From a bacterium (GTDB lineage: Bacteria > Patescibacteriota > Minisyncoccia > UBA6257 > GWB1-50-10), in contig JAKAID010000002.1 of NCBI GenBank assembly GCA_021814545.1, positions 7,009 to 71,008 on the forward strand: DNA of 64,000 nt. Reading direction: 5' to 3'. Positions 3,790-22,000 of the stretch are shown piece by piece. The number at the start of each line of letters is the position of its first letter. Within the stretch, counting starts at the first letter, position 1. Below the pieces are notes generated by a model. It did not search any database. It was not told the origin of the DNA and was given only the letters and a program-made list of their open reading frames with translations. The translations under genes and the position numbers were made by a program.

Positions 3790-4782
3790 CTATTTCTTCC
3801 GTTTTATTGCCTTATGCGCCGCGGCAACAATATCCTTCACCCCCATGCCGTACGCCTCGATAAGCTCGGCGGGCTTTCCCGATTCGCCAAACACGCCCTG
3901 CAAACCGACAAACTCCTGGGGCGTAGGGAGATGCTTTGCGAGAAACTCCGCTACCGCGCTCCCCATCCCTCCAGCAACTTGATGCTCTTCCACGGTCACA
4001 ACGGCACCCGTTTTCTTCGCGACTTCAAGTATCTTCTTCTCGTCCATGGGTTTCACAGTGTGATTATTGAGCACGATGGTTCCCACGCCCTCTTTGTCGA
4101 GCGCGCGTGCCGCAAGCAGCGCGGTATGCACGAGCGTGCCGCACGCGATAAGAGCGACCTCCGGGCGCTTCGACTCCCAAAATACTTCCGCCTTCCCTGG
4201 CGTAAATTTCGTGTCGCGGGTCGTGATAAGCGGCGTCGCTTCACGCGCGAACCGGATATAGACCGGCCCCCATAGTTTTGCCGCGGCAAGCGTTGCCTTA
4301 CGCGCCTCTTCCGCATCACAGGGAACGATAACCGTCATATTCGCCATCACCCGCATGGTCGCGATATCCTCGACCGCCTGATGCGTTGCGCCGTCCGGCC
4401 CCACCGAAATACCCGCATGGTGCCCCGCGATTTTCACGTTCGCATCATTGTACGAAATGGTGGTGCGTATCTGCTCCCAGTTCCTCCCGGGAGAGAACGT
4501 GGCGTATGAAGAAATGAAGGGGACCTTCCCCGAAACACCCAAACCCGCAGCGATGGTCGCCATGTTCTGTTCAGCGACACCAACCTCAAAATAACGCTCC
4601 GGAAAGGTGTTCGCGAACCCCTCAACGCGCGTTGACTCCTTAAGGTCCGCGCAGAGCACCACCACCTCCGGCGCGGTCTTCCCAAGCTCCATGAGCGCCT
4701 CGCCATACCCGTTCCGAATGGGCGCCTGCGCGGAGTCGGCTTCGAATATTTTTTTATTTAATTTTGCAGTGTCCTTCAACAT
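3790..4782 (-). CDS. Transketolase, C-terminal (pyrimidine-binding) subunit
   Basis: 330 aa with GYGEALMELG, FEVGVAEQNMATIAAGL and GHHAGISVGPDGATHQ. Part of a split tkt arrangement. Confidence 0.9.
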   Translation of the reverse strand: MLKDTAKLNKKIFEADSAQAPIRNGYGEALMELGKTAPEVVVLCADLKESTRVEGFANTFPERYFEVGVAEQNMATIAAGLGVSGKVPFISSYATFSPGRNWEQIRTTISYNDANVKIAGHHAGISVGPDGATHQAVEDIATMRVMANMTVIVPCDAEEARKATLAAAKLWGPVYIRFAREATPLITTRDTKFTPGKAEVFWESKRPEVALIACGTLVHTALLAARALDKEGVGTIVLNNHTVKPMDEKKILEVAKKTGAVVTVEEHQVAGGMGSAVAEFLAKHLPTPQEFVGLQGVFGESGKPAELIEAYGMGVKDIVAAAHKAIKRKK

Positions 4783-4785
4783 GCG

Positions 4786-5646
4786 CTATTCGTGTTCTGA
4801 CTTTATTTTCCTCCCTAACGTGCGAAGCTCCGCAAGCGCCTCTTTTGCCTGCGCCTTGTTCGGCGGTTTCCCGTGCCAAGCAAAATCGTTTTCCATAAAG
4901 CTCACCCCCCTCCCGGGAATCGTATGCGCGATGATAAGCGTCGGCTTTTCATGTATCGCCATCGCCTCATACACTGCATCGATGAACCGCTCGATACTGT
5001 GGCCGTCCACCTCTATCACATGCCAGCGGAATGCCTCGTACTTCGCTCGTATCGAATCAAGTGGCATCACCTGCTCGGTGAAACCATCTATCTGGATATT
5101 GTTCCTATCCATAATAGCGGTGAGATTCGAAAGACGGTTTTTTCCTGCGAACATCGCCGCTTCCCAGGTGTTCCCCTCCTGCTGCTCGCCATCAGACATC
5201 AAACAATACACGCGGTGCTTTTTCCCATCAAGGCGCGCCGCAAGCGCCATGCCGATGGCTTGCGAAAGCCCCGAGCCTAAAGGACCAGAGGTCGTCTCGA
5301 TGCCAGGAAGGCTCCCGCGGTGAGGGTGTCCCTGAAGCCGCGAATGAAGCTTGCGAAGCGTGTAAAGCTCCTCAAGCGGAAAATAGCCCGCGTACGCCAT
5401 CGTCGTGTAAAGAACGGGGCAGATATGCCCGTTCGAGAGCACAAGACGGTCACGGAGAGGCCAATCGGGCTTCTTCGGGTTGTGGTTCAAAATATGGAAA
5501 TACATGGCAGTGAAAATATCTGCCATGCCCAGGGGCCCCGCAGAGTGTCCGGACCCTGCCTCAAGAAGCACGTTTATAAGGCGTTCGCGAATGCGATTCG
5601 CCATCTCCTCGAGATGTTGTAATTTTTTTTCGTGCAGCGGTTCCAT
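4786..5646 (-). CDS. Transketolase, N-terminal (TPP-binding) subunit
   Basis: 286 aa with GHPHRGSLPGIETTSGPLGSGL and the TPP motif MSDGEQQEGNTWEA. Lies directly upstream of the C-terminal subunit gene. Confidence 0.9.
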   Translation of the reverse strand: MEPLHEKKLQHLEEMANRIRERLINVLLEAGSGHSAGPLGMADIFTAMYFHILNHNPKKPDWPLRDRLVLSNGHICPVLYTTMAYAGYFPLEELYTLRKLHSRLQGHPHRGSLPGIETTSGPLGSGLSQAIGMALAARLDGKKHRVYCLMSDGEQQEGNTWEAAMFAGKNRLSNLTAIMDRNNIQIDGFTEQVMPLDSIRAKYEAFRWHVIEVDGHSIERFIDAVYEAMAIHEKPTLIIAHTIPGRGVSFMENDFAWHGKPPNKAQAKEALAELRTLGRKIKSEHE

Positions 5647-10594: not shown

Positions 10595-11074
10595 TCAGTA
10601 CTGAATACCATAGGCGACCACGCCGAACGCCACGGACACATTGAGCGATTCTTTCCCTCCACGCATGGGTATTTCCACTATCTCATCGGCACGGGCGAGG
10701 ATGCGCTTCGGCAGTCCTTCGACCTCGTTCCCCATGACAAGTACGAACTTCCCCTTTTTCTTGCGCAACGCGGCGTACGGGCGCGCACGCGGCGCCTGCT
10801 CTACCGCCACAACAAAATACCCCTCTTTCTTTAATGCGCGAAGCGCGAGCGCGGTCGTTCGTTTATATTCCCACGGAACGAAATGCTCCGCGCCGAGGGC
10901 GACCTTCGCGAACTCAGGGCGCACGCGCCCGAATCTGTCGACCGGGACTGGGGTAATGCCGCAGAGTAATATCTTTTTTATACCCGCACCATCTGCGGTG
11001 CGGAATATCGAGCCGACATTATGCACGCTCCGCACATTGTGAAGCACGACCGCAATATCTTTCATGAGAGTCAT
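10595..11074 (-). CDS. SpoU/TrmH-family RNA 2'-O-methyltransferase
   Basis: VVLHNVRSVHNVGSIFRTADGAG, GNEVEGL and ESLNVSVAFGV, as in SPOUT methylases. Start taken at MTLMKD (ATG 11074). Confidence 0.8.
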   Translation of the reverse strand: MTLMKDIAVVLHNVRSVHNVGSIFRTADGAGIKKILLCGITPVPVDRFGRVRPEFAKVALGAEHFVPWEYKRTTALALRALKKEGYFVVAVEQAPRARPYAALRKKKGKFVLVMGNEVEGLPKRILARADEIVEIPMRGGKESLNVSVAFGVVAYGIQY

Positions 11075-11092
11075 TTTAATCCTTGATGCCGC

Positions 11093-11130
11093 AAAATAAA
11101 AACCCCCGTACGCAGGATTGCGGTCGGGGG
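11093..11130 (-). terminator. Rho-independent terminator closing the tRNA operon
   Basis: Hairpin CCCCCGtacgcaggattgcggtCGGGGG on the plus strand, followed on the minus strand by TTTTATTTT. Confidence 0.5.
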
Positions 11131-11132
11131 AA

Positions 11133-11280
11133 AGTGGCAAGGAGGGTTCGAACCCCCATCTCCTTCGCTTAACTTCAGGACGAACACGTTGGGCGGGAGA
11201 GCGGGAGCCGCACTCGTCGCATTATAGAAGCGTGTTCAAGAACCTGGCGCAAAGGGCTCTACCTATTGAGCTATTGCCGT
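11133..11280 (-). tRNA. tRNA-like gene with a ~75-nt insertion in the anticodon-arm region
   Basis: Minus strand: ACGGCAA-T-A-GCTC-AATAGGTA-GAGC D-arm and GGGGG-TTCGAAC-CCTCC T-arm. A 5-nt variable loop (GAGAT) and a candidate anticodon stem CTTTG/CGAAG enclose ~82 nt. The two acceptor-terminal pairs are mismatched in my reading. Confidence 0.4.
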
Positions 11281-11287
11281 ACAGGAA

Positions 11288-11374
11288 TTCGGGAGGGGGG
11301 AATTGAACCCCCAGCCTCGCCAGCTGCGGAAACTCACACAGGGGTGGCGCGCTCTGCCGTTGAGCTACTCCCGA
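11288..11374 (-). tRNA. tRNA gene (class I arms) with a 22-nt anticodon 'loop' (15-nt insertion)
   Basis: Minus strand: TCGGGAG-T-A-GCTC-AACGGCA-GAGC-G-CGCCA-[CCCCTGTGTGAGTTTCCGCAGC]-TGGCG-AGGCT-GGGGG-TTCAATT-CCCCC-CTCCCGA-A. The acceptor stem, D-arm and T-arm all pair perfectly. Confidence 0.55.
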
Positions 11375-11398
11375 GTAACCCTTGTAAGAACTGGGCAA

Positions 11399-11427
11399 AG
11401 AATAACCGAATATTCAAAAAATGTCAA
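11399..11427 (-). promoter_or_regulatory. Sigma70-like promoter for the tRNA operon
   Basis: Minus strand TTGACA-N17-TATTCT, about 24 nt upstream of the tRNA 5' end. Confidence 0.4.
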
Positions 11428-11463
11428 TAAAAACCCCCGTACACGTTTCGAAGCGCACGGGGG
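11427..11463 (-). terminator. Rho-independent terminator after the HNH gene
   Basis: Hairpin CCCCCGTacacgtttcgaagcgcACGGGGG, then TTTTTATT on the minus strand, 3 nt after the stop. Confidence 0.5.
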
Positions 11464-11466
11464 CGT

Positions 11467-11905
11467 CTAAAATGGTGGTTCTTCAGAGGGGGGTGCCTCC
11501 CCCTTCTCCTCGTTCCGATTCTCGCGAAGGAGCCTGGGCTTTGAAATACCGTACGGCCCCGAAATGAGCGAGGTGTAATCCATAATCGCCTTCCGCGGTA
11601 CACGAAGCGCGCCGTGGTCGACTCTCCGATGGTGCGAGTTGCACGTCCATACGACCACGAACGGACAGCCGTAGTCCACGTGATGCGCATCGCCGAGCGG
11701 GAGTCGGTCGATTGGCGCATGGGGCCCCTCTCTTCCAAGAAGTTCTCGCACGCAGAAGTAGCAAGGCTGCCGCTTGATGCGGCAAGAACGGCCGCGCCTG
11801 AAGTTCGCCGGCGTATCGACATGCGCCCGAAAAAGCCTGGTTGCGCGGTCTCGATCTGCTTTACTCCATCGCTTCCCCTCTTTTGTCTTCCACTTATCGT
11901 TCATG
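11467..11905 (-). CDS. HNH endonuclease
   Basis: CRIKRQPCYFC...HAPIDRLPLGDAHHVDYGCPFVVVWTCNSHH matches the C-x2-C...H...N...HH HNH layout. Start placed at MNDKWK; the upstream part of ORF 11467..12105 overlaps the next gene. Confidence 0.65.
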
Positions 11906-12638
11906 GGAAAAGCTCCTTCTGCACGAAGCGGAGAGAACCGCCGGCGCCCACACCGTGCGCATTCACGACGATACTTTTTGCGGGACGCTCCGTGCCGCAG
12001 CAAAGCCGGCACTTCACGCACTGCACGCCACACGTTTCGTAAGGGCAGCGTACCTCGCCAGGATGCACCGCGAAACTCGGAAGCTTCATCCGAAATGTGC
12101 GCCATCCCCTCCTACGCGCCTCGAGATACCCCTCGGTCGTCTCAACGCTCGCCATGAGAAGATGCCTGAAACGCTCATCGCAGGTGCGCCACGCGTGCGT
12201 ATACCCGGTCCAATTATCAACGCGCACGAGAAGCTCGTTCCACACATCGAACGGCACCGCCGCGGGGTCTCCGTACGAACCCACCCGCACCGGCTTTCCC
12301 GCAAGCGCGATACGCGCCTCGATGAGCGAAAGCGCACGATACCGTTCCATGTGCTGCCCGTGCAGCCACGCAAGATACGCCGCGTAGCAGACCCGCTTCG
12401 CGCCACGACCCGTAAGCGCGCAATCGCCGCACACATCGTGTTCGCGCGGAGTACCGAAATCAAGCGAAGGGTTCCTGCCCTGCGGGAGCACCGATATCTG
12501 GACCATCGGTCCCGTCTTCTCGTTCACCGACTTGAGGTCGATGCCGGTCATGACGACCTGCACAGGATTCCCCGTAAAAACGGAGGGTCCGCGCCAGACG
12601 ACAGCCGAGCGCCTGGTACTGATGCCTCTCTCACTCAT
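11901..12638 (-). CDS. Hypothetical Cys-rich protein, translationally coupled to the HNH gene
   Basis: 245 aa. C-terminal cluster CPYETCGVQCVKCRLCCG. No family recognised. Confidence 0.5.
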   Translation of the reverse strand: MSERGISTRRSAVVWRGPSVFTGNPVQVVMTGIDLKSVNEKTGPMVQISVLPQGRNPSLDFGTPREHDVCGDCALTGRGAKRVCYAAYLAWLHGQHMERYRALSLIEARIALAGKPVRVGSYGDPAAVPFDVWNELLVRVDNWTGYTHAWRTCDERFRHLLMASVETTEGYLEARRRGWRTFRMKLPSFAVHPGEVRCPYETCGVQCVKCRLCCGTERPAKSIVVNAHGVGAGGSLRFVQKELFP

Positions 12639-12708: not shown

Positions 12709-12739
12709 AAAAATAAAAACCCCGTGGGTTACCACGGGG
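12709..12739 (-). terminator. Rho-independent terminator of paralog P1
   Basis: CCCCGTGGgttaCCACGGGG followed by a T-run on the minus strand. Confidence 0.5.
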
Positions 12740-12755
12740 TATGATGCACGGCCGT

Positions 12756-13475
12756 TCAGGCGGGCGCGTTGCACTTCCGCATCGACGTCATCCCGACGTT
12801 CCATGCGCGGCGGTTCCCCCAGTCGCTCATGACGCGAAGACCGAACGCGTCGAAATAGCCGACAAGGACGCGCTCGCCCCCCGCGGTGCTGTCCGCGCAG
12901 CGCGCGTAGAGCGGCTCGGCGAAAATGCGCTCGCCGGTAGCGAGGAAGTGGGTGATTGCGATGTAGATGGCGATACGTGCCGACGCGGAAACCTCGCCCG
13001 CGTCCAGCACATTGAGCTGCTCACTCACCACCTTCTCGGTAGACGAGGGCACAGACGCCTTGCGCACCAGACACCAGCGGGCAGACCCGCGCTCGTTCGC
13101 GAACGGCTCGTCCGCGAGGTGGAACGCCGGGAAGAACGCGCTTGGCTGCCCCTTGCGCATCTCGTTCACCGAGATTGCGGGGACGAGTGCAAGCACGTGC
13201 GTATCCTTACAGCGCTTCAGCACACGCGCCGAGAAGGGCACATCCTGGAGCCGCGCGCGCTCCGCGAAGGTGAGCTCGATGCCAAACCACTCGTACGCAT
13301 CGATGACATCGAGCATGTTCGGCCCCATGATCCTCTTCGCGCGAAGAAGCGAAATGAGACTGTCCGACGGTCCGAAGATGACCGGCTTCAGCACCGCGAA
13401 CAGAATGAAGAGGCTGGCCACCACAAGAACCGAAAAAACCGCGAGCAGCTTGAAGACCTCCTGATACTGCGCCAT
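12756..13475 (-). CDS. Paralog P1 of an uncharacterised membrane-anchored family (N-terminal TM helix; motifs IMGPNML, CKDTHVL, WCLVR, IAITHFL, YARCAD)
   Basis: 239 aa. Aligns to P2-P5 along its whole length. Confidence 0.7.
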   Translation of the reverse strand: MAQYQEVFKLLAVFSVLVVASLFILFAVLKPVIFGPSDSLISLLRAKRIMGPNMLDVIDAYEWFGIELTFAERARLQDVPFSARVLKRCKDTHVLALVPAISVNEMRKGQPSAFFPAFHLADEPFANERGSARWCLVRKASVPSSTEKVVSEQLNVLDAGEVSASARIAIYIAITHFLATGERIFAEPLYARCADSTAGGERVLVGYFDAFGLRVMSDWGNRRAWNVGMTSMRKCNAPA

Positions 13476-13518
13476 ATGAACCTCCGAACGCTTCGAGAAA
13501 CCTGCTGTAAAAGAACGT

Positions 13519-13551
13519 TTTTAGTACAGCATAAATAATTTATTCAGTCAA
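13519..13551 (-). promoter_or_regulatory. Promoter of P1
   Basis: Minus strand TTGACT-N17-TGTACTAAA with an AGGAGG-type SD before the ATG. Confidence 0.45.
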
Positions 13552-13587
13552 CAAAACCCCCCTCGCACGATTGGTGTGCAAGGGGGT
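13549..13587 (-). terminator. Terminator of paralog P2
   Basis: CCCCCTcGCACgattggtGTGCaAGGGGG hairpin plus a T-run. Confidence 0.45.
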
Positions 13588-13593
13588 GAATAA

Positions 13594-14280
13594 CTACCCT
13601 ACTTCGAGGTCGGGAACACGCTCGGACGCGAGTCCGAGGTCGCCGGAGAAATAACCCGCCCAGTACCTGCGGACCGAGAGTCCGCGGCCGTAACCGAACA
13701 TGCCGACCGCGAGGGTGTCCTGGCCAAGCGCGTCTCCGCAGCGGACGAACACCTGTTCGAAGAGCCGCTCGCCCACCTTGAGGTAGTGCGCGATCACGAG
13801 ATACGCGACCGTCCGCGCGAGCGGCACCTGCTCGCGCTCCGGAAGGTATGTGCGCTGCTCCGCCTCCGAAAGCCCCACCGTACCGCGCACGAACGCTCGC
13901 CGCACGAGGTGCCAGGAAGGCCGACCGAAAACGGCGGCGAAGTTCTCGTTCAGGAACCAGCTCGTGTTGTTGTCGAAGAGCTTGGGCTGAAAAGACCGGA
14001 GTGCGTTGATGGACAACGGAAGACACGCCACGAGGATGTGCGTGTCCTTGCAGGCTCTCAACGTCCGTGCCGAGAACGGCACGCGCGCGAGCGCCCCCGC
14101 CCACTCTTCCTTCGTCACAATGCTGAGCTCGACGAACGCGTGCTCGGGACCAAAGAAGTTGCGCCCCATGATCTTCTTTGCGCGTTGCACCGACCCCGGC
14201 CTGAAGTACTGCCAGAGCTGCGCGAGCGCGAGCGCGGCAAGCGCCGCCACGACGCAAACGACAATGAATCCCATGTGCAC
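13594..14280 (-). CDS. Paralog P2 of the same family
   Basis: 228 aa with IMGRNFFGP, CKDTHILVACLPLS, WHLVRR, YLVIAHYL, VFVRCGD and a C-terminal VPDLEVG. Confidence 0.7.
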   Translation of the reverse strand: MHMGFIVVCVVAALAALALAQLWQYFRPGSVQRAKKIMGRNFFGPEHAFVELSIVTKEEWAGALARVPFSARTLRACKDTHILVACLPLSINALRSFQPKLFDNNTSWFLNENFAAVFGRPSWHLVRRAFVRGTVGLSEAEQRTYLPEREQVPLARTVAYLVIAHYLKVGERLFEQVFVRCGDALGQDTLAVGMFGYGRGLSVRRYWAGYFSGDLGLASERVPDLEVG

Positions 14281-14321
14281 CTCCTAAAAAAGCGTGAACT
14301 TCATTTTGTTAATGAACAAAA

Positions 14322-14351
14322 ATAATCTACCATTAATATGATTTTTGTCAA
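14322..14351 (-). promoter_or_regulatory. Promoter of P2
   Basis: Minus strand TTGACA-N16-TAGATTAT, with an AGGAGG SD before the start. Confidence 0.4.
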
Positions 14352-14382
14352 TAAACACTCCCGCATGAATTTCATGCGGGAG
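14350..14382 (-). terminator. Terminator of paralog P3
   Basis: CTCCCGCATGaatttCATGCGGGAG hairpin. Confidence 0.4.
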
Positions 14383-14391
14383 CATTGCGAA

Positions 14392-15204
14392 CTACCCGTG
14401 CCGGCGAAGCAGAAGGTCCGGCTCCCGCTCAGTCGCAAGGCCGATGCGAGAATCCGCGACATCATCACGAACGCCGTAGAAGTGGACGGAACTGTGCGGG
14501 TCAAACTCGCCCACGCACACGCGCTCGCCCATGCGGTTGAAGGAGGAGCTCCGCACACAGTAGCCGCGGAACAGCCACTCGTCCGTGGCGAAAAAGTACC
14601 CCATGATGGCGTATGCGAGGATGCGCGCGGAAAGCATCCGCTCCCCCGCCTCGACGAACTTCCCCTGTTCGCGGAGCGTTCGCCCGCGCGAGGTGGCGAC
14701 CGGCTCCCGGCGAATGAGGTGCCACCCTATCTCCTCGCTTGCGCCGCGGTCCTTCAGAAAGGACTCGTGCAACCGCTCGGTGCGGTCGAGATCGAAGAAC
14801 GGTCCCGCCACGTAGAGGCTTCGATAGCTCGCCACGCGGTCCGCGACGAGCTCCTGTATATCCTTGAAGGAAACGGGAAGCACCGCGACGAGAACGTGCG
14901 TGTCCTTGCAGTCCTTCAGCGTGCCCCTTAAGAAGGGCACCCTCTTGAACACGCGCACGTAATCGTGGGAGAGCTTCTCTCCGAAAAAGCAGAACGCGGC
15001 GGGGACGCTGAAAAAATTCTGCCCCATAATTTTGCGCGCCTCGTTCCACGAAACTTCTCCCCTGCGGCGAAGCTGTATGAAGCGCGGCACGACATACCAC
15101 GCAAAAACGAACGCGGCGGGGAACAAGAGGAACACCGCAAAAACGAGCGCCTCCGCTCGAAGATACGCGGGGTTCGTGGTCGCCTGCCTTACCAGTGCAA
15201 ACAT
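14392..15204 (-). CDS. Paralog P3 of the same family
   Basis: IMGQNFFSV, CKDTHVLVAVLPVS, WHLIRR, YVRS and a C-terminal EREPDLL. Start refined to MHMFALV, which has AAGGAGG 6 nt upstream. The ORF track start at 15336 would run through P4's terminator. Confidence 0.65.
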   Translation of the reverse strand: MFALVRQATTNPAYLRAEALVFAVFLLFPAAFVFAWYVVPRFIQLRRRGEVSWNEARKIMGQNFFSVPAAFCFFGEKLSHDYVRVFKRVPFLRGTLKDCKDTHVLVAVLPVSFKDIQELVADRVASYRSLYVAGPFFDLDRTERLHESFLKDRGASEEIGWHLIRREPVATSRGRTLREQGKFVEAGERMLSARILAYAIMGYFFATDEWLFRGYCVRSSSFNRMGERVCVGEFDPHSSVHFYGVRDDVADSRIGLATEREPDLLLRRHG

Positions 15205-15290
15205 ATGCATCCTCCTTGGGTGGTGAAGTGGGCTGCGTGTAGTGTTAAGGTACGCCTTCAGAAAACCACTTTCTTGGCCACCCGTCAATA

Positions 15291-15323
15291 TAAAACAAAA
15301 CCCCGCGCAAATAGTACGCGGGG
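15291..15323 (-). terminator. Terminator of paralog P4
   Basis: CCCCGCGcaaatagtaCGCGGGG hairpin followed by a T-run. Confidence 0.5.
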
Positions 15324-15339
15324 CAATAGGCAACACCGT

Positions 15340-16101
15340 TCACGGAAGCTCGGGGGGCTGCGCGAGTGCAACACCGAGGAGCAGATACTGCCCGTTATCA
15401 TCGAAGCCGCAGCGGATGCTGAACCCCCGTTCGCGCTCGAAGAGACCGAGGCAAACCCGCCCGTTCCCGGACCCCACGTCCGCGGTGCGCACGTAGCAGT
15501 CCTGGAACAAACGCCCGCCCCCCTTCAGAAAGTGGGCGATGACGACGTACGCGAGCACGCGCACGCAGGGCACGTACTCCTGTGGCGCAAGCGCGCGCTG
15601 GATGTCCCAGGGCTTGCCGCGCAACTCGTACGCGGACTCCTTCCGGATGAGATACCACCCCGGCCTCCCCCGCACGTGCGCGAACGGCTCCTTCCTGAAC
15701 CACTCCTCGTTGTAACCGTTGAAGCACTTGTTGATGAGGGGCACATAGAGGACCTCGGTCAGCAGCTCCGTAAGCGAAAGCGGGAGAACTGCCACGAGAA
15801 CGTGCGTGTCCTTGCACGCCTCAAGCGTACTCTTCTTGAAGGGAATGCACCGCAATGCTTCGCGCCACGACCGCGCGACCTTCTGCGGGATGAGGTCGTG
15901 GTGGAAGTAGCGGAACGCATCCCCTACTCCGAAAAAATTCTGCCCCATCACCATACTCGCTTCCTTGTGCGAAACGCGATTGCGGAGGCGACGGATGATG
16001 CCACCCGCAACGTCGCGCATGTCGGCGAGGCTGAAATACATGACGAACAAGAACGCGAAGAAGAAGATGAGCACGATGACTTCGATGAATCCTCTCTCCA
16101 T
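15340..16101 (-). CDS. Paralog P4 of the same family
   Basis: VMGQNFFGV, CKDTHVLVAVLPLS, WYLIRK, YVVIAHFL, YVRTAD and a C-terminal PPELP. Start refined to MERGFIEVIV, which has a TM helix and an AAGGAG SD. Confidence 0.7.
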   Translation of the reverse strand: MERGFIEVIVLIFFFAFLFVMYFSLADMRDVAGGIIRRLRNRVSHKEASMVMGQNFFGVGDAFRYFHHDLIPQKVARSWREALRCIPFKKSTLEACKDTHVLVAVLPLSLTELLTEVLYVPLINKCFNGYNEEWFRKEPFAHVRGRPGWYLIRKESAYELRGKPWDIQRALAPQEYVPCVRVLAYVVIAHFLKGGGRLFQDCYVRTADVGSGNGRVCLGLFERERGFSIRCGFDDNGQYLLLGVALAQPPELP

Positions 16102-16149
16102 AACGCACTCCTTTCGGGAATAAGCGCATTGGTAGTTGTTAACGTACGC

Positions 16150-16182
16150 CATCAGTACACCACCGATGCGCTTTGATGTCAA
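16150..16182 (-). promoter_or_regulatory. Promoter of P4
   Basis: Minus strand TTGACA-N17-TGTACTGAT. Confidence 0.45.
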
Positions 16183-16214
16183 TAAAAAGCCCCCGTCGCA
16201 CAGATGCGCAGGGG
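16181..16214 (-). terminator. Terminator of paralog P5
   Basis: GC-rich hairpin GCCCCcgtcgcacagatgcgcaGGGGC with a T-run. Confidence 0.4.
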
Positions 16215-16225
16215 CGGGATATGGG

Positions 16226-17035
16226 TTAGGCGAACCGCAAGTCCGGAAGCTGTTCGGCAGTGATGGAGGCAATCATGAGGCGGCTCTCATTGGGGTCGCC
16301 GGACGCAACCATGAGCCTGCTCACACCGAGGCCGGTCTTCTCGCCGAAACATCCGACCGCGACGTGCACGCCGCGCGAATCGGTGTCCGCACAGCGCACA
16401 TAGTCGTCCTTGAAGAGGCGTGCGCCGTCCGCATGCCGCGTGCGCAAGTAATGCGCAATGATGACGTAGACCATCACCCGCGCGCTAACCGGCACCTCGT
16501 CATCTTTGAGAAGTGCGAGCTGCGAAGACCACTTCTTGAACTCGGAATCCCTGATGGGCGCCGAGCGCACGAGGTGCCACCCGGCCACGCCCTTGTCGAG
16601 CGCGAACGGCTCGTGCTCGTACCACATGCCATCGCAGTCGTCACCATGCGTGTACGAAAAGAGCGAACGCGCCACCCCGCGCCGGATGTCGACGATCGAC
16701 ATCGCCGGCACCGCGAAGAGCATGTGCGTCTTCCTACAACGCTTCAGCGTCTCTTCGCTCCACGGGACTTCACCCATTGCGGAGAACACGTCGCCGTCCT
16801 CGTGATTCGGGTGTAGCCACAACCGTGTATCCGAAGGCCCGAAGTAGCGCGCGCCCATGATGGCGCGAGCGCGTTCGAGCGTGGCGCCCCTCTTCTTGCG
16901 CGGGCGGCGCGGGCTCGCATCGAGCGCGAGGAGTGCTGCGCAGCGGCTCGCAAAGCTCATAATCGCAAACGCGATAACCGCGACCACGAACGCAATACCG
17001 ATGCTCGCGCCAAGCGCGAGAAGCCGGTTTCCCAT
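16226..17035 (-). CDS. Paralog P5 of the same family
   Basis: 269 aa with IMGARYFGP, CRKTHMLFAVPAMS, WHLVRS, YVIIAHYL, YVRCADTD and a C-terminal LPDLRFA. N-terminal TM helix. Confidence 0.7.
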   Translation of the reverse strand: MGNRLLALGASIGIAFVVAVIAFAIMSFASRCAALLALDASPRRPRKKRGATLERARAIMGARYFGPSDTRLWLHPNHEDGDVFSAMGEVPWSEETLKRCRKTHMLFAVPAMSIVDIRRGVARSLFSYTHGDDCDGMWYEHEPFALDKGVAGWHLVRSAPIRDSEFKKWSSQLALLKDDEVPVSARVMVYVIIAHYLRTRHADGARLFKDDYVRCADTDSRGVHVAVGCFGEKTGLGVSRLMVASGDPNESRLMIASITAEQLPDLRFA

Positions 17036-19078: not shown

Positions 19079-22000
19079 CTATTCCTGAAATCCTATTCGC
19101 ATATACCAGTCTGCACTCCCCACCCGATTCCATCCGCCCACGCGGCATTCGTTCGTGCATTGAACATTCGCGCCCTGCCCATACCCCTGGCCCGCATACC
19201 CGTCCGCGTATGCGTCGCCAAGCTTAATCGCGTTCGCCCACATGTTCCGCGTGTAAACAATATTATTTCCATTTGCGATGACATCGAGGGCAAACCAATA
19301 TTGCGTGCTGCTCGCCACATGGACGGGCGTATCGAACGAAAATACCCGCTCCTGCTCTCTGTCAGGATTGAAAAGTGCGGCCGTTGTCGTCTGACCGAGC
19401 AAGTTTGAAAAATCAGGCTTCCCGTTGATGTCAGGATAAACAGAAAGTCTCGCCATCGCGGGGTCGTCTGCCCTCGTCTGGGACAACTTCAAACCGACAA
19501 CATTAAACTGGAAATCCTCTTTTGGCGTGAACGACTGGAAGCTGGCGGTATCAGAACCGTCGTTACTCCAAACATTCGGCCAAAATCCGAAATTGTCGCT
19601 CCATGAGTCCGCCTCGGTTTGTGCGATAAATACGGTTGACGAGGCTGGGCGCCATTCTGCGGTACCGATAACCGAAGTATTTCCGAAATCGTCTTTCGCA
19701 CGCACGCCAATTGAGTATGCGTCATCGATGCCAACGGTCCGGGTGTAGGAAGTGCCGGAAGGAGCCCACCGTGTTTCGTTGATACCACCGAGAGGAGAAA
19801 AATTGATGTCGTAGGTGAGATTTTTATCAAGCGTATCCCGGTCAGTCGCCGCCTGCCAGCTTATTGCGAGCGCCGAGCTTTGCTTATTGAACGCAACAGT
19901 CACCGCCCCGGGCAGAACCGGCTTTGTGCGCGCCGGCCCCTCGCCGAACGAATAGTGCTTCGCATCGGTCGCCACCAAAACATATGGCGTCGGCCCGAAC
20001 AATCCTCCGGTTAATGAAGTATCATAAAACGCAACAGTCACATAATCATTCGGCGAGAGCGAGAGATCATTCGTCGAAGAAGCGAGCGGGAACATAAGGT
20101 GCTTATCCTCAAGTTCCGAATACGCAAGGTCACCGCTGCACGGCCCATAGCCAGGACACGAGTCTCCATCAGGCAAAACCACACCCTTGGCAGCACTCAT
20201 GCTCCCATAGCTCGTACGATACGCGACCGTGAGCGCACCAGGCATGTCACTGAAATTGTCAGCATTCGAACCAAGTATGTCGGTCTTATGCGCAGGCTCC
20301 GCATTCAGATAGAACACAATGAGCCGCGCAGTGGCGATGTCTCCATGCGTAGACGGCACAAATGGATATTGGTCGTAGTAAACATCAAGGAGATATGCGG
20401 AAGAACTTGCTCGCGTATCACGCGAGAAATACACATTCGAAAAATAACTCGGTGCGTCAATTTCTGCGGTGCTCGTTGCGGAGCAAAGTCCCTCTGCATC
20501 GCAGGCACGAAGACCGAATGAATACGTGCGGCCAACCTGCGGGATTCTCATTGAATAACGCGGAGTCGAAGACGAATAACGCAACGTCGACGATGCGCCA
20601 TCCGTTTCGTTCAGCTCATAGAGCACGGTTGATGTCGCCCCCTGAAAATCATTTGACGGCTGCCATTCGAATGAAAGCGAAATCGCATTCGCCAGATAGC
20701 GGGCGATACCATCGGAATTTACTGCGGCCGGAACACCCGGTGCGGACCTTGGCTCGGGGTAGTTCTTTGCATTCTGCGGATTCGCCGCAGTGCGAACCTC
20801 AAAATCGCTGCCCGCATCGGAATCGCAGCCGTGTCCCGCAAATTCGCCGTCCGTGCCGAGAAGAGCGCTTGCGCACGCCCCAGATACCCACGCCTTGCGC
20901 TCAATGCTCGCGCCCCGTTCGGGAATCTGGGCGCCGTAATCGACCGCATCAATAATCGCCGGGTCATGCGCGTCGGTTATCTTTTCCCTGCCCCCCACAA
21001 GAAATACCCTCCCTCCGCTCTCGGCCGCCGACAGCGAAAATGTTCTCTGTATCATGTCCGCCTCCCTTGCCCCGCGATATCCGTCCTCGCCATTCTTGTC
21101 CGTGCCGCGGGCGATAAGAAAGAATCCGCGTGCGGGGATTACGCTGCCATCACCCATGTTTTTCTTGGCGACGGTCGAAGTTGAAACAGATTCAGTGCCA
21201 CTCACGTATTGGATGGACCAAGAAGAAATATCGAGGAGTGAATCGGTTGGGTTATAGAGCTCAATAAATTCATCTCCCGCATCCGTTCCCTGGACCTGAA
21301 GTTCGCTAATAACCGCATGGCGCACGCCCCGCGAACCCTTTGGCGTAATAGCCACAGAAAACTCCCTCGATGAGGTTGCGCCCTCATTATCGGTCGCAAC
21401 AAGCCGCGCAGAATAAGTTGATGCGGCCGCGTACGCATGGTCTGTGATTGCCTCGGTTGAACTTGCATACGTGCCATCGCCGAAATCCCACGCGTATGAA
21501 ATAAGTGCTCCGTCTTCGTCAGTGGATGAAGCGGCGTTAAACCGCACGAGCTCCTCGATTTGCGCGTCGAAGGGCGCGTACGTCAGCACGATTGCAGGGG
21601 GAATATTTTCGCGGGATGCCTCGCCCGGCATTGGGCGCGCGGCGCGCCATGCGTCCCCGACCCACTGGAGCGAATTCCCGTTGCCCCGCGCGCCGGAACT
21701 TGAGGCATACGATACCGCACTCAGTATGTTCTCTCCGCCCGTTATAGAAAGCGCTTCGCCATCGTTCGAGAGCGAAAATGCGCTACGGAACAGCGGTCCC
21801 TTATATTGTGGCCAATCTTTTGAAAATTGCGCCGCATCCTGCGCAACAACGGCATACGCCCCCGGCGTAAGTAGGCCATCGGTTCCGCTCGCGGAAATAA
21901 GATGACTTGTTCCGCCCTCCACCAGCCTCATTTTCCCGACCGGTACTGGACTCGTTCCATCGTTACGAATTTCTACCCACTCGTGCGCATCATCCGCTCC

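What the first reader, a model, noticed from the sequence alone, without database searches (positions are those of the whole stretch)
11093..11463. Two-gene tRNA operon whose tRNAs carry expanded anticodon-arm regions
A promoter (TTGACA-N17-TATTCT) and a terminator bracket two minus-strand tRNA-like genes. The 87-nt one has perfectly paired acceptor, D and T arms and a 5-bp anticodon stem (CGCCA/TGGCG), but a 22-nt 'loop' instead of 7 nt. The 148-nt one has canonical D and T arms and a candidate anticodon stem (CTTTG/CGAAG) enclosing ~82 nt. These inserts are too short for group I introns and look more like archaeal-type intervening sequences or degenerate elements, which would be unusual in bacteria.
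Basis: seen in the sequence. Interest (0 to 1): 0.55.

Follow-up and report, generated by a model that had tools for sequence, protein, structure and literature searches.

The report
Conserved pair of anticodon-less tRNA-like RNAs
Two adjacent tRNA-shaped genes in this uncultured (CPR/Patescibacteria) bacterium are not intron-split tRNAs: relatives carry the same pair, and no copy has a usable anticodon loop, so they look like conserved tRNA mimics whose "anticodon arm" varies freely in length.

Summary
On the minus strand, a TTGACA-17-TATTCT promoter and a terminator bracket two tRNA-like genes. The first is e1, 11374..11288 (87 nt, 22-nt "loop"). The second is e2, 11280..11133 (148 nt, 82 nt enclosed).

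The intron reading is not supported. The inserts match no group I or other Rfam family and contain no bulge-helix-bulge motif. No excision point gives a canonical loop.

Three related Patescibacteria loci (L241, L239, L237) decide the matter. They share the upstream genes and hold the same promoter-e1-e2 cassette, and their copies carry no inserts. They still lack an anticodon loop. Their e1 has a 7-bp stem with a 5-6-nt apical loop whose sequence differs between lineages. Their e2 has an 8-10-bp hairpin with a 4-7-nt apical loop.

The e1 cloverleaf is kept by compensatory changes in 11 of 21 pairs. The 5-bp acceptor helix and T arm of e2 are nearly invariant.

The cassette is therefore a conserved operon of non-decoding, tRNA-shaped RNAs, and the window copy has lineage-specific arm expansions. 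It sits beside phage-derived genes (DUF7227/phrog_2554 and an HNH-like protein), and equally close relatives that lack those genes also lack the cassette. I infer that it acts as a tRNA mimic; no data show its function. It is a new variant of a known kind and moderately interesting.

The parts
11433..11464 (-). Intrinsic terminator of the upstream (HNH-like) gene, immediately before the cassette promoter. Its 3' arm and T-run (GTACGGGGGTTTTTATT) recur in the downstream terminator.
   Evidence: 12-bp stem, 8 GC pairs, T-run; 17-mer at 11426-11442 and 11095-11111. Similar terminator-plus-TTGACA junctions at 12710-12723 and 16176-16193 show this is the genome's usual terminator style, not a target-site duplication.
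11399..11427 (-). Sigma-70-type promoter TTGACA-17-TATTCT of the cassette.
   Evidence: 10 of 12 matches; the only site in 2 kb. TTGACA and the spacer motif TTCGGTTA are conserved in L241, L239 and L237, where the -10 element is TACTAT.
11288..11374 (-). e1: tRNA-like RNA 1 (87 nt). It has a 7-bp acceptor, canonical D arm with GG, a 5-nt variable loop, a T arm and discriminator A. There is no encoded CCA and no 7-nt anticodon loop.
   Evidence: Rfam tRNA 54.5 bits. Orthologues are L241 1542-1617, L239 5344-5419 and L237 5561-5638 (46-50 bits). 11 of 21 pairs have compensatory changes and 98.8% of cells are paired.
11323..11344 (-). Expanded apical part of the e1 anticodon-type arm (22 nt). It folds as a 3/1-nt internal loop plus the helix CUGUG/CGCAG plus a small apical loop.
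   Evidence: Relatives have a 7-bp stem with a 5-6-nt loop here instead (UCUUG, CGUGU, UUGGUU).
11281..11287 (-). 7-nt spacer between e1 and e2 (TTCCTGT); 5 nt in relatives.
11133..11280 (-). e2: tRNA-like RNA 2. The core is 11278..11136 and discriminator A is at 11135. It has a 5-bp acceptor GGCAA/TTGCC, a D arm, a long hairpin in place of the anticodon arm, a 5-nt linker and the T arm GGGGG-TTCGAAC-CCTCC.
   Evidence: Orthologues are L241 1623-1698, L239 5425-5498 and L237 5644-5717, each 74-76 nt with clean minimum-free-energy (MFE) cloverleaves. The acceptor and T arm are invariant or nearly so.
11168..11249 (-). Expanded distal part of the e2 arm (82 nt between CTTTG and CGAAG). It is a long irregular hairpin that includes the 8-bp helix UGAACACG/CGUGUUCG.
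   Evidence: Relatives have only an 8-10-bp helix with a 4-7-nt loop. No second copy exists in the window, there is no Rfam hit, and there is no similarity to the 3' hairpins of relatives.
11095..11130 (-). Intrinsic terminator of the cassette (CCCCCG...CGGGGG followed by TTTTTATT).
11470..11904 (-). Context gene kept in synteny with the cassette: a 145-aa protein with an HNH-like motif (CxxC...AHHVDY...C.SHHRRVDHG).
   Evidence: (weak PHROG endonuclease hit). Homologues lie directly upstream of the cassette in L241, L239 and L237, and next to the DUF7227 homologue in the phage-like contig L243.
11904..12638 (-). Context gene kept in synteny with the cassette: a 245-aa protein of the DUF7227 / phrog_2554 family, a phage family of unknown function.
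   Evidence: phrog_2554, E = 1.4e-60; 151 phage records; DUF7227 in homologue P0125; homologues P0121, P0123, P0124 led to the orthologous cassettes. The AF2 model has pLDDT 90 and no PDB fold match.

Best explanation
The locus is a stand-alone transcription unit (own promoter and terminator) that encodes two tRNA-shaped RNAs that cannot decode. At least four lineages of one Patescibacteria subclade carry it.

Shown:
- Both RNAs keep the parts of a tRNA that form the acceptor/T-arm helix and the D/T-loop elbow.
- In every lineage a plain hairpin stands where the anticodon stem-loop should be. Its length and apical sequence vary freely: 7-10 bp with a 3-8-nt loop in e1, and 8-10 bp in e2 of relatives.
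- The window's unusually large regions (22 nt and 82 nt) are lineage-specific extensions of this unconstrained arm. They are not introns.

Inferred:
- The primary transcript is cut by RNase P and 3'-end enzymes like a tRNA precursor, and CCA is added, giving two stable L-shaped RNAs.
- Their function lies in the tRNA upper body. They would be bound by proteins that recognise the tRNA elbow and acceptor end.
- For e2, the binding protein would read the invariant 5-bp acceptor helix GGCAA/TTGCC.
- They would therefore act as tRNA mimics, either as a decoy or competitor for a tRNA-binding enzyme or nuclease, or as a carrier used through its 3' end.
- The cassette probably came in with phage-derived DNA, because it is found only where the DUF7227 and HNH-like genes are present.
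For: (1) Orthologous cassettes with the same promoter, order and spacing lie upstream of TrmH in L241, L239 and L237.

(2) None of the four e1 copies has a canonical anticodon loop. The loops are UCUUG, CGUGU and UUGGUU on 7-bp stems, and 22 nt in the window. No e2 copy has one either; the e2 hairpins end in loops of 4-7 nt.

(3) The e1 cloverleaf is under selection. 98.8% of cells are paired, 11 of 21 pairs changed on both sides, 0 of 500 shuffles reach this, and slid controls give 49-61% paired.

(4) e2 is 88-92% identical among relatives whose flanking coding DNA is 74-78% identical. Its acceptor, D and T stems are invariant among the three relatives. Every substitution but one in its arm keeps pairing (2 compensatory, 4 one-sided).

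(5) The body of e1 in relatives is tRNA-Pro-like (best E. coli match is tRNA-Pro, 78.5%), which points to descent from a real tRNA.

(6) Relatives with equally similar TrmH that lack the upstream island have RecG next to TrmH and no tRNA-like gene.

(7) The inserts match nothing in Rfam. The 64 kb encode no tRNA splicing endonuclease, RtcB or Ro60/TROVE protein.

(8) Comparable irregular tRNA-like genes exist in phage contigs (L089, L105, L138) and in a metagenome contig with a phage-like neighbouring gene (L160).
Against: - Only four lineages were recovered. The e2 covariation is not significant on its own (111 of 500 shuffles).
- There are no expression, end-mapping or aminoacylation data, so processing and function are inferred.
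- The window's e2 fold is not more stable than shuffled sequence (z = -1.65).
- The cassette is absent from equally close relatives, so it is dispensable. It sits beside phage-derived genes, which is also what a slowly decaying prophage remnant would look like.
- The window copy differs strongly from its closest relative L241 (e1 acceptor and anticodon stems, e2 D arm) although the neighbouring protein is 90% identical. This means either rapid evolution or allele replacement.
- No partner protein has been identified.
Confidence: 0.6

Rival explanations
1. The genes are decaying tRNA genes, pseudogenes of a prophage or mobile-element remnant. Insertions and mutations destroyed the anticodon loops and the RNAs have no function.
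For: - The cassette lies next to phage-family genes (phrog_2554, HNH-like).
- It is absent from equally close relatives.
- Irregular tRNA-like genes are common in phage contigs.
- The window's e2 is only borderline by Rfam (29.2 bits against 29) and is not unusually stable.
Against: - Stems are maintained by compensatory changes (11 of 21 pairs in e1, 98.8% paired).
- e2 is more conserved than the neighbouring coding DNA.
- Promoter, spacing and terminator are conserved over a divergence at which TrmH is only 65-68% identical.
- The replaced arm is always a well-formed helix rather than random sequence.
Confidence: 0.15
2. The tRNA-like bodies are only processing and stabilising scaffolds. The functional parts are the hairpins they carry or flank: the expanded e2 arm in the window, and the extra hairpins 3' of e2 in relatives. 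RNase P and RNase Z would release or protect these, much as in engineered tRNA scaffolds.
For: - The variable element is always a hairpin placed where engineered tRNA scaffolds carry cargo.
- Relatives L239 and L241 have an extra ~90-nt hairpin, plus a conserved small hairpin (also present in L237), after e2. The window lacks both while its e2 arm is about 60 nt longer.
Against: - Arm sequences are not conserved and change by compensatory substitution, while the tRNA-like body, and above all the e2 acceptor, is the invariant part.
- The window insert shows no similarity to the relatives' 3' hairpins.
Confidence: 0.12
3. The genes are intron-containing tRNA genes. The extra nucleotides would be removed by an archaeal-type endonuclease plus ligase, by self-splicing or by an unknown route, giving normal decoding tRNAs.
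For: - ARAGORN in intron mode can model both as tRNAs with 15-nt and 77-nt introns.
- Unexplained short tRNA introns have been reported in Lak megaphages (PMC6784885).
Against: - ARAGORN's solutions are non-canonical: C33 in 'Arg(CCU)', and 'Leu(UAA)' without a long variable arm and with an intron at position 31/32.
- There is no bulge-helix-bulge motif.
- There is no group I or ribozyme hit.
- Insert-free orthologues still lack an anticodon loop, and their apical sequences differ.
- The 64 kb encode no splicing endonuclease or RtcB.
Confidence: 0.04
4. The genes are unusual but decoding tRNAs. e1 would have a 6-bp anticodon stem and a 7-nt loop whose anticodon differs between lineages (L241 GU-CUU-GC, L239 GC-GUG-UC), like allo-tRNAs that are charged independently of the anticodon and recode codons.
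For: - ARAGORN calls L241 e1 Lys(CUU) and L239 e1 His(GUG) without introns.
- L241's loop has U33 and G37.
- Allo-tRNAs have long anticodon stems and very diverse anticodons (PMC7609411).
Against: - Positions 32 and 38 are G and C in both L241 and L239, so the loop closes to 5 nt.
- L239 has C33 and U37, L237 has an 8-nt loop, and the window has 22 nt.
- e2 has only a small apical loop on a long helix.
- e1 is a 7/5 tRNA with a short variable loop, not 8/4 or 9/3.
Confidence: 0.05

Closest known systems
Canonical bacterial tRNA (Rfam RF00005)
   Same: Cloverleaf with a D arm containing GG, a T arm (TTCRANT) and a discriminator base. e1 scores 54.5 bits and its relatives 46-50 bits. The e1 body in relatives is most like tRNA-Pro.
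   Different: No lineage has a 5-bp stem with a 7-nt U33/R37 anticodon loop, and the apical sequence is not conserved. e2 has a 5-bp acceptor stem. The arm varies from 7 bp to about 40 bp.
Intron-containing tRNA genes: bacterial group I introns, archaeal bulge-helix-bulge introns, and the 'enigmatic' introns of Lak megaphage tRNAs (PMC6784885; bioRxiv 10.1101/2020.01.27.920355)
   Same: Extra sequence sits inside the anticodon arm of an otherwise tRNA-like gene, and ARAGORN's intron mode reports it.
   Different: The inserts are 15-82 nt with no group I core and no bulge-helix-bulge motif. Insert-free orthologues are still not decodable, so excision would not produce a tRNA.
Irregular tRNA and allo-tRNA-like polycistrons from soil metagenomes and metatranscriptomes (Mukai et al. 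2017, as reviewed in PMC7609411)
   Same: Co-transcribed, non-standard tRNA-like genes of unknown function that may be tied to mobile elements and were not chargeable by E. coli synthetases.
   Different: Those have 8/4 or 9/3 acceptor/T geometry, long variable arms and real, if diverse, anticodon loops. Here the geometry is 7/5 (e1) and 5/5 (e2), the variable regions are short, and there is no anticodon loop.
YrlA / bacterial Y RNA tRNA-like domain (Rfam RF02553)
   Same: A bacterial non-coding RNA that mimics the tRNA D/T elbow and acceptor without decoding. A weak cmscan hit spans the e1 T arm and the e2 D arm.
   Different: The score is 18.6 bits against a gathering score of 69. YrlA has a permuted topology, with its ends in the long stem, and is encoded beside rsr (Ro60). 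No TROVE gene is in the 64 kb.
tmRNA tRNA-like domain, and the stable 'species 1/2' RNAs in the phage T4 tRNA cluster (T4 recalled from memory, not checked here)
   Same: tRNA-end mimicry without an anticodon arm, with processing by tRNA enzymes. In T4 the RNAs are co-located with tRNA genes in a phage and their function is unknown.
   Different: ARAGORN makes no tmRNA call and there is no tag reading frame. No sequence relationship was tested for the T4 RNAs.

Membership tests
Canonical decoding tRNA | Cloverleaf with a 7-bp acceptor stem, a D arm with G18G19 and a T arm with the T-psi-C loop | tested here: met
   Met for e1. e2 meets the D-arm and T-arm criteria but has only a 5-bp acceptor stem.
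Canonical decoding tRNA | 5-bp anticodon stem closed by a 7-nt loop with U33 and a purine at position 37 | tested here: not met
   The window has a 22-nt region in e1 and an 82-nt region in e2. Relatives have 5-6-nt loops on 7-bp stems (e1) and 4-7-nt loops on 8-10-bp stems (e2).
Canonical decoding tRNA | Anticodon conserved among orthologues | tested here: not met
   The apical sequences UCUUG, CGUGU, UUGGUU and UGAGUUUC differ although the stems are conserved or covary.
tRNA with group I intron | Intron of about 200 nt or more with the group I catalytic core (Rfam Intron_gpI) | tested here: not met
   The inserts are 15-82 nt. cmscan at E <= 10 over 10900-11700 gives no intron or ribozyme family.
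tRNA with archaeal-type (bulge-helix-bulge) intron | Two 3-nt bulges on opposite strands separated by a 4-bp helix at the exon-intron junctions | tested here: not met
   In e1 a 3-nt bulge and a 1-nt bulge are separated by 5 bp. The e2 arm is an irregular hairpin without the motif (MFE folds; read by eye).
tRNA with archaeal-type (bulge-helix-bulge) intron | Splicing endonuclease (EndA) and RNA ligase (RtcB) encoded by the organism | tested here: inconclusive
   None appear among the Pfam-scanned ORFs of the 64-kb window. The rest of the genome is not available.
Intron-containing tRNA (any type) | Intron-less orthologues or paralogues show the uninterrupted, canonical tRNA | tested here: not met
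   The insert-free orthologues in L241, L239 and L237 are still non-canonical.
YrlA / Y RNA-like (RF02553) | Covariance-model score at or above the gathering score, and a neighbouring rsr (TROVE) gene | tested here: not met
   The score is 18.6 bits against 69. No TROVE domain was found in the window.
tRNA-Sec / allo-tRNA | 8/5, 9/4, 8/4 or 9/3 acceptor/T geometry, a long variable arm and an anticodon loop | tested here: not met
   L237 e2 scores 29.1 bits against RF01852, whose gathering score is 47; only the 5-bp D stem with a 4-nt loop resembles tRNA-Sec. The geometry is 7/5 (e1) and 5/5 (e2), with 5-6-nt variable regions.
tmRNA | tRNA-like domain plus a tag-peptide reading frame | tested here: not met
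   ARAGORN and Rfam find no tmRNA in the window.
tRNA pseudogene | Stem-disrupting substitutions accumulate, and expression signals are lost | tested here: not met
   98.8% (e1) and 98.7% (e2) of cells are paired, and 11 e1 pairs are compensated. Promoter and terminator are conserved.
Conserved structured non-coding RNA (generic) | Orthologues in several lineages with covariation above background | tested here: met
   There are four lineages. For e1, 0 of 500 shuffles reach the observed covariation. e2 rests on sequence conservation rather than significant covariation.
Conserved structured non-coding RNA (generic) | A stable, processed transcript exists | not testable with these tools
   No transcriptome data were accessible.

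The most novel reading that the evidence does not exclude
e1 and e2 would be founding members of an undescribed class of tRNA mimics that lack an anticodon loop, carried by CPR bacteria and phages. In this class the tRNA upper body (elbow plus acceptor end, with a sequence-specific 5-bp acceptor helix in e2) is the active part, and the former anticodon arm is a free-evolving spacer. Such RNAs could be decoys that neutralise tRNA-targeting nucleases or other tRNA-binding factors during phage-host conflict, or non-ribosomal carriers used through their CCA end.
Probability: 0.3. Interest if true: 0.75.

Novelty: new variant of a known kind. Interest (0 to 1): 0.55.

Why it matters
If the RNAs are made and stable, this is a natural case in which a bacterium with a tiny genome keeps two tRNA-shaped molecules that cannot read codons. 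That points to a job for the tRNA shape itself, such as decoy, scaffold or carrier.

It gives a concrete, testable system in CPR bacteria and their phages. It is also a warning for annotation: gene finders label such genes as tRNAs with introns or with arbitrary anticodons, which distorts tRNA inventories and inferences about the genetic code in metagenome-assembled genomes.

Tried and rejected
- **Introns.** cmscan at E <= 10 found no intron or ribozyme family. ARAGORN's intron solutions are non-canonical. No bulge-helix-bulge motif is present.
- **Y RNA.** The weak YrlA hit (18.6 bits) reflects the shared D-arm and T-arm consensus. The CUGGCG/CGCCAG complementarity between e1 and e2 is a 6-mer, which is expected by chance, and there is no TROVE gene.
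- **Mobile repeat (MITE) inserted in the loops.** No second copy of either insert exists in the 64 kb.
- **The 17-nt direct repeat as a target-site duplication.** Rejected, because the same terminator/-35 junction style recurs at 12.7 kb and 16.2 kb.
- **Orthologues through TrmH synteny.**
  - 80 genome loci and the closest TrmH relatives gave no cassette.
  - The closest relatives have RecG beside TrmH. More distant Patescibacteria have a normal tRNA-Lys(UUU) there.
  - The cassette was found only through the upstream DUF7227 protein.
- **DNA-pattern scans.**
  - The metagenome scan with the e1 D arm and T arm returned mostly ordinary tRNA-Lys and tRNA-Thr, plus one irregular gene, L160.
  - Viral scans with e2 motifs returned nothing.
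  - One viral scan returned only pairs of adjacent normal tRNAs.
  - blastn of the cassettes against phage genomes gave nothing specific.
- **Homology between the e2 insert and the extra 3' hairpins of relatives.** None above shuffled controls.
- **Literature.** No paper describing such RNAs in CPR bacteria was found.
Full report
**What is in the window**

On the minus strand, an intrinsic terminator (11464..11433) ends the upstream gene. A sigma-70-type promoter follows (TTGACA 11427-11422, 17-nt spacer, TATTCT 11404-11399). It is the only promoter-like site in 10.5-12.5 kb.

About 25 nt further on lies e1 (11374..11288, 87 nt). After a 7-nt spacer comes e2 (11280..11133, 148 nt), followed by a second terminator (11130..11095).

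- e1 is found by ARAGORN and by the Rfam tRNA model: 54.5 bits, E = 5.7e-09 over the whole 64 kb.
- e2 reaches the tRNA gathering score only narrowly (29.2 against 29) and only in a local search. ARAGORN sees it only when introns are allowed.
CGCCA/TGGCG encloses 22 nt in e1, and CTTTG/CGAAG encloses exactly 82 nt in e2.
- One detail was missed: e2 has only a 5-bp acceptor stem, GGCAA/TTGCC.
- The sequence is identical in independent assemblies, so it is not an assembly artefact.
- It is the only tRNA-type gene in the 64 kb.

**Organism and surroundings**

The window is ordinary chromosome of a Patescibacteria (CPR) bacterium.

- The best genome matches of the downstream TrmH/SpoU methyltransferase are Patescibacteria MAGs, including Liptonbacteria, at 56-64% identity. 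Metagenome proteins named Jorgensenbacteria or Wolfebacteria reach up to 72%.
- Downstream of the cassette lie TrmH, DUF192, an MFS transporter, GAPDH, PGA_cap and pentose-phosphate genes.
- Upstream lie a 145-aa HNH-like protein, a 245-aa protein of the phage family phrog_2554/DUF7227, five tandem paralogues of a membrane-protein family with no database hits, and further hypothetical genes up to about 27 kb.
- The 64 kb encode no splicing endonuclease, RtcB, Ro60/TROVE protein or integrase.

**Are the inserts introns?**

- A permissive Rfam scan (E <= 10) of 10900-11700 gives only the two tRNA hits and noise. There is no group I intron and no small ribozyme.
- The e1 insert folds as an extension of the stem: a 3/1-nt internal loop, the helix CUGUG/CGCAG and a small apical loop. 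The e2 insert folds as one long irregular hairpin. Neither has two 3-nt bulges separated by 4 bp.
- ARAGORN's solutions are geometric fits. "Arg(CCU)" has C33. "Leu(UAA)" lacks the long variable arm and has an intron at position 31/32.
- No second copy of either insert exists in the window.

**Finding orthologues**

TrmH synteny led nowhere.

- Eighty genome loci and the four closest TrmH relatives hold no such genes.
- In the closest relatives RecG lies divergently about 80 nt from TrmH. Synteny with the window breaks exactly at the cassette.
- More distant Patescibacteria have an ordinary tRNA-Lys(UUU) near TrmH.

The upstream DUF7227 protein gave the answer. Its nearest homologues are P0121 (90% identity), P0123 (54%) and P0124 (53%). 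They lie on contigs with the same gene order: membrane-protein paralogues, DUF7227, HNH-like protein, a 400-600-nt gap, then TrmH. The gap contains a homologous cassette with a terminator, TTGACA-17-TACTAT, e1, a 5-nt spacer and e2.

**What the orthologues show**

Their e1 copies (L241 1542-1617, L239 5344-5419, L237 5561-5638) score 46-50 bits as tRNA and have no insert. Even so, the anticodon arm is a 7-bp stem closed by 5-6 nt: UCUUG, CGUGU and UUGGUU. Positions 32 and 38 are a G-C pair in L241 and L239, and L239 has C33 and U37. The apical sequences differ between lineages although the stem is the same or covaries.

Their e2 copies are 74-76 nt long and fold by minimum free energy alone into a clean cloverleaf:
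- a 5-bp acceptor GGCAA/TTGCC;
- a 5-bp D stem with a 4-5-nt GG loop;
- an 8-10-bp hairpin with an apical loop of 4-7 nt;
- a 6-nt linker;
- the T arm GGAGG-TTCGAAT-CCTCC.

So no copy in any of the four lineages can present an anticodon. The window's 22-nt and 82-nt regions are extensions of an arm that is a plain hairpin everywhere.

**Selection on the fold**

For e1, using the four sequences with the apical part removed so that the columns align:
- 98.8% of cells form standard pairs.
- 11 of 21 pairs changed on both sides: 5 in the acceptor stem, 4 in the anticodon-type stem and 2 in the T stem.
- 0 of 500 column shuffles reach these values, and sliding the partners by 1-3 columns drops pairing to 49-61%.

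For e2 in the three relatives:
- 98.7% of cells are paired.
- The acceptor and D stems are invariant. The T stem has a single G·U/A-U change.
- Every substitution but one in the 10-bp arm keeps pairing (2 compensatory, 4 one-sided).
- With three sequences this is not significant (111 of 500 shuffles).

The window's e2 shares the acceptor, the T stem and the base of the arm. The fifth pair of the arm is G-C in the window and in L237 and A-U in the other two relatives. e2 is 88-92% identical among relatives whose flanking coding DNA is 74-78% identical.

This pattern fits purifying selection on the tRNA-like body with a free-evolving arm. It does not fit pseudogene decay.

**Origin**

- The e1 body of relatives is tRNA-Pro-like. 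It has C1-G72, A73, the D loop AGCCUGGUA and the T arm GGAGGUUCAAAUCCUCU, and its best E. coli match is tRNA-Pro at 78.5%.
- The window's e1 has a D arm and T arm typical of Lys/Thr-type tRNAs and no E. coli match.
- The window copy differs strongly from L241 although the neighbouring protein is 90% identical. This implies rapid change or allele replacement.
- The DUF7227 family is a phage family, with 151 phage records including cluster M mycobacteriophages. Its CPR-like homologues also sit in phage-like gene contexts (SNF2, VapE-like, methyltransferase, many small genes). In one of these (L243) it lies beside the HNH-like protein, but no tRNA-like gene is there.
- The cassette is present only in genomes that have this island. 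Linkage to the phage genes themselves is not obligatory.

**Comparable genes elsewhere**

While searching, I met other tRNA-like genes with aberrant anticodon regions.
- Phage contig L089 has four of them in an array.
- Two phage contigs have a 4-bp stem and a 3-4-nt loop in place of the arm (L105, L138).
- An AT-rich metagenome contig (L160), next to a YqaJ-like exonuclease ORF (identified by reading the translated sequence, not by a domain search), has a 5-bp acceptor UGCAA/UUGCA and a hairpin instead of an anticodon arm. Its 3' half resembles the window's e2.

The literature held in the library describes three related things: unexplained introns in Lak megaphage tRNAs (PMC6784885), group I introns as the known bacterial type (10.1101/2020.01.27.920355), and polycistrons of irregular or allo-tRNA-like genes in soil data (PMC7609411). 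It does not describe this pair.

**Interpretation**

*Shown:* a conserved, independently transcribed pair of tRNA-shaped genes without anticodon loops. The window copies have a lineage-specific enlargement of the unconstrained arm.

*Inferred:* tRNA-type end processing and CCA addition, and a function that lies in the elbow and acceptor end. The invariant e2 acceptor helix, set against the freely covarying e1 acceptor, suggests that a protein reads the e2 helix sequence. I favour a tRNA-mimic role (decoy, or use of the 3' end) over three alternatives:
- a scaffold for hairpin cargo, because the arms are the least conserved part;
- decay, because the stems are compensated;
- splicing, because no decodable product is possible.

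*Uncertainty:* there are only four lineages, no expression data and no identified partner. The cassette is dispensable among close relatives.

**Verdict**

The intron interpretation is not supported. The locus is best described as a new variant of bacterial and phage tRNA-like non-coding RNAs, and it is of moderate interest.

Noticed in passing
window 12759-17035 (minus strand): Five tandem paralogues (228-314 aa) of a protein family. Each has an N-terminal membrane helix and the shared motifs KIMGxNFFG, CKDTHxL, GWxLxR and ERLF...VRC.D. None has a Pfam, PHROG, PADLOC or NCBIfam hit. Two or three genes of similar size occupy the same position in L237 and L239; their homology was not checked.
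   Followed up: partly
window 11904-12638 (minus strand): The DUF7227/phrog_2554 protein has 151 phage homologues, including cluster M mycobacteriophages and Klebsiella, Gordonia and Microcystis phages. Its AlphaFold model is confident (pLDDT 90), with conserved Cys clusters, but Foldseek finds no PDB match better than E = 0.07. It may be a fold without a solved structure.
   Followed up: partly
L239 5499-5660; L241 1699-1860; L237 5718-5810: In relatives, the transcript continues after e2. L239 and L241 have a ~90-nt long hairpin supported by compensatory changes. All three have a conserved small hairpin (CUCCGG-CCGCC-UGU-GGCG-CCCGGAG) before the terminator. Both elements are absent from the window.
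   Followed up: partly
L089 528-1411 (IMGVR_UViG_3300021399_000204): This phage contig has four tRNA-like genes spaced about 150-250 nt apart. Their acceptor stems are related (CGGAACG, CGGAGCG, CGGATCG) and their D and T arms are canonical. All have aberrant anticodon regions: a 15-nt loop, a 5-nt loop, a ~70-nt insert, and a 7-bp stem with a 3-nt loop.
   Followed up: partly
L160 965-1044 (OIYY01021806.1); L105 4028-4100; L138 11583-11631: Further tRNA-like genes without an anticodon loop. L160 is on an AT-rich metagenome contig next to an ORF that reads as a YqaJ-like exonuclease (by eye, no domain search). It has a 5-bp acceptor UGCAA/UUGCA, and its 3' half resembles the window's e2. L105 and L138 (IMG/VR contigs) have a 4-bp stem and a 3-4-nt loop in place of the anticodon arm.
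   Followed up: partly
L005, L006, L008, L009, L012-L018 (Patescibacteria TrmH loci): A canonical tRNA-Lys(UUU) lies within about 1.5 kb upstream of TrmH in 11 of the 17 more distant Patescibacteria loci scanned, on either strand. The stretch AAGGAGATGG in the window's e2 resembles the tRNA-Lys 3' anticodon-stem and variable region. Descent of e2 from this syntenic tRNA is possible but was not tested.
   Followed up: no
window 19082-23518 (minus strand): A 1479-aa protein with Lamin-tail and PKD domains, probably a surface protein, lies inside the block of hypothetical genes upstream of the cassette.
   Followed up: no
window 11426-11442, 11095-11111, 12710-12723, 16176-16193: Terminators in this region share a near-identical 3' arm and T-run (ACGGGGGTTTTTATT). 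They often run directly into a TTGACA -35 box, so the terminator and the next promoter overlap.
   Followed up: yes
window 3793-5646 (minus strand): Transketolase is encoded as two separate ORFs (N-terminal and pyrimidine/C-terminal halves). They sit in a compact sugar-phosphate cluster with aldolase, PfkB, RPE and RpiB.
   Followed up: no
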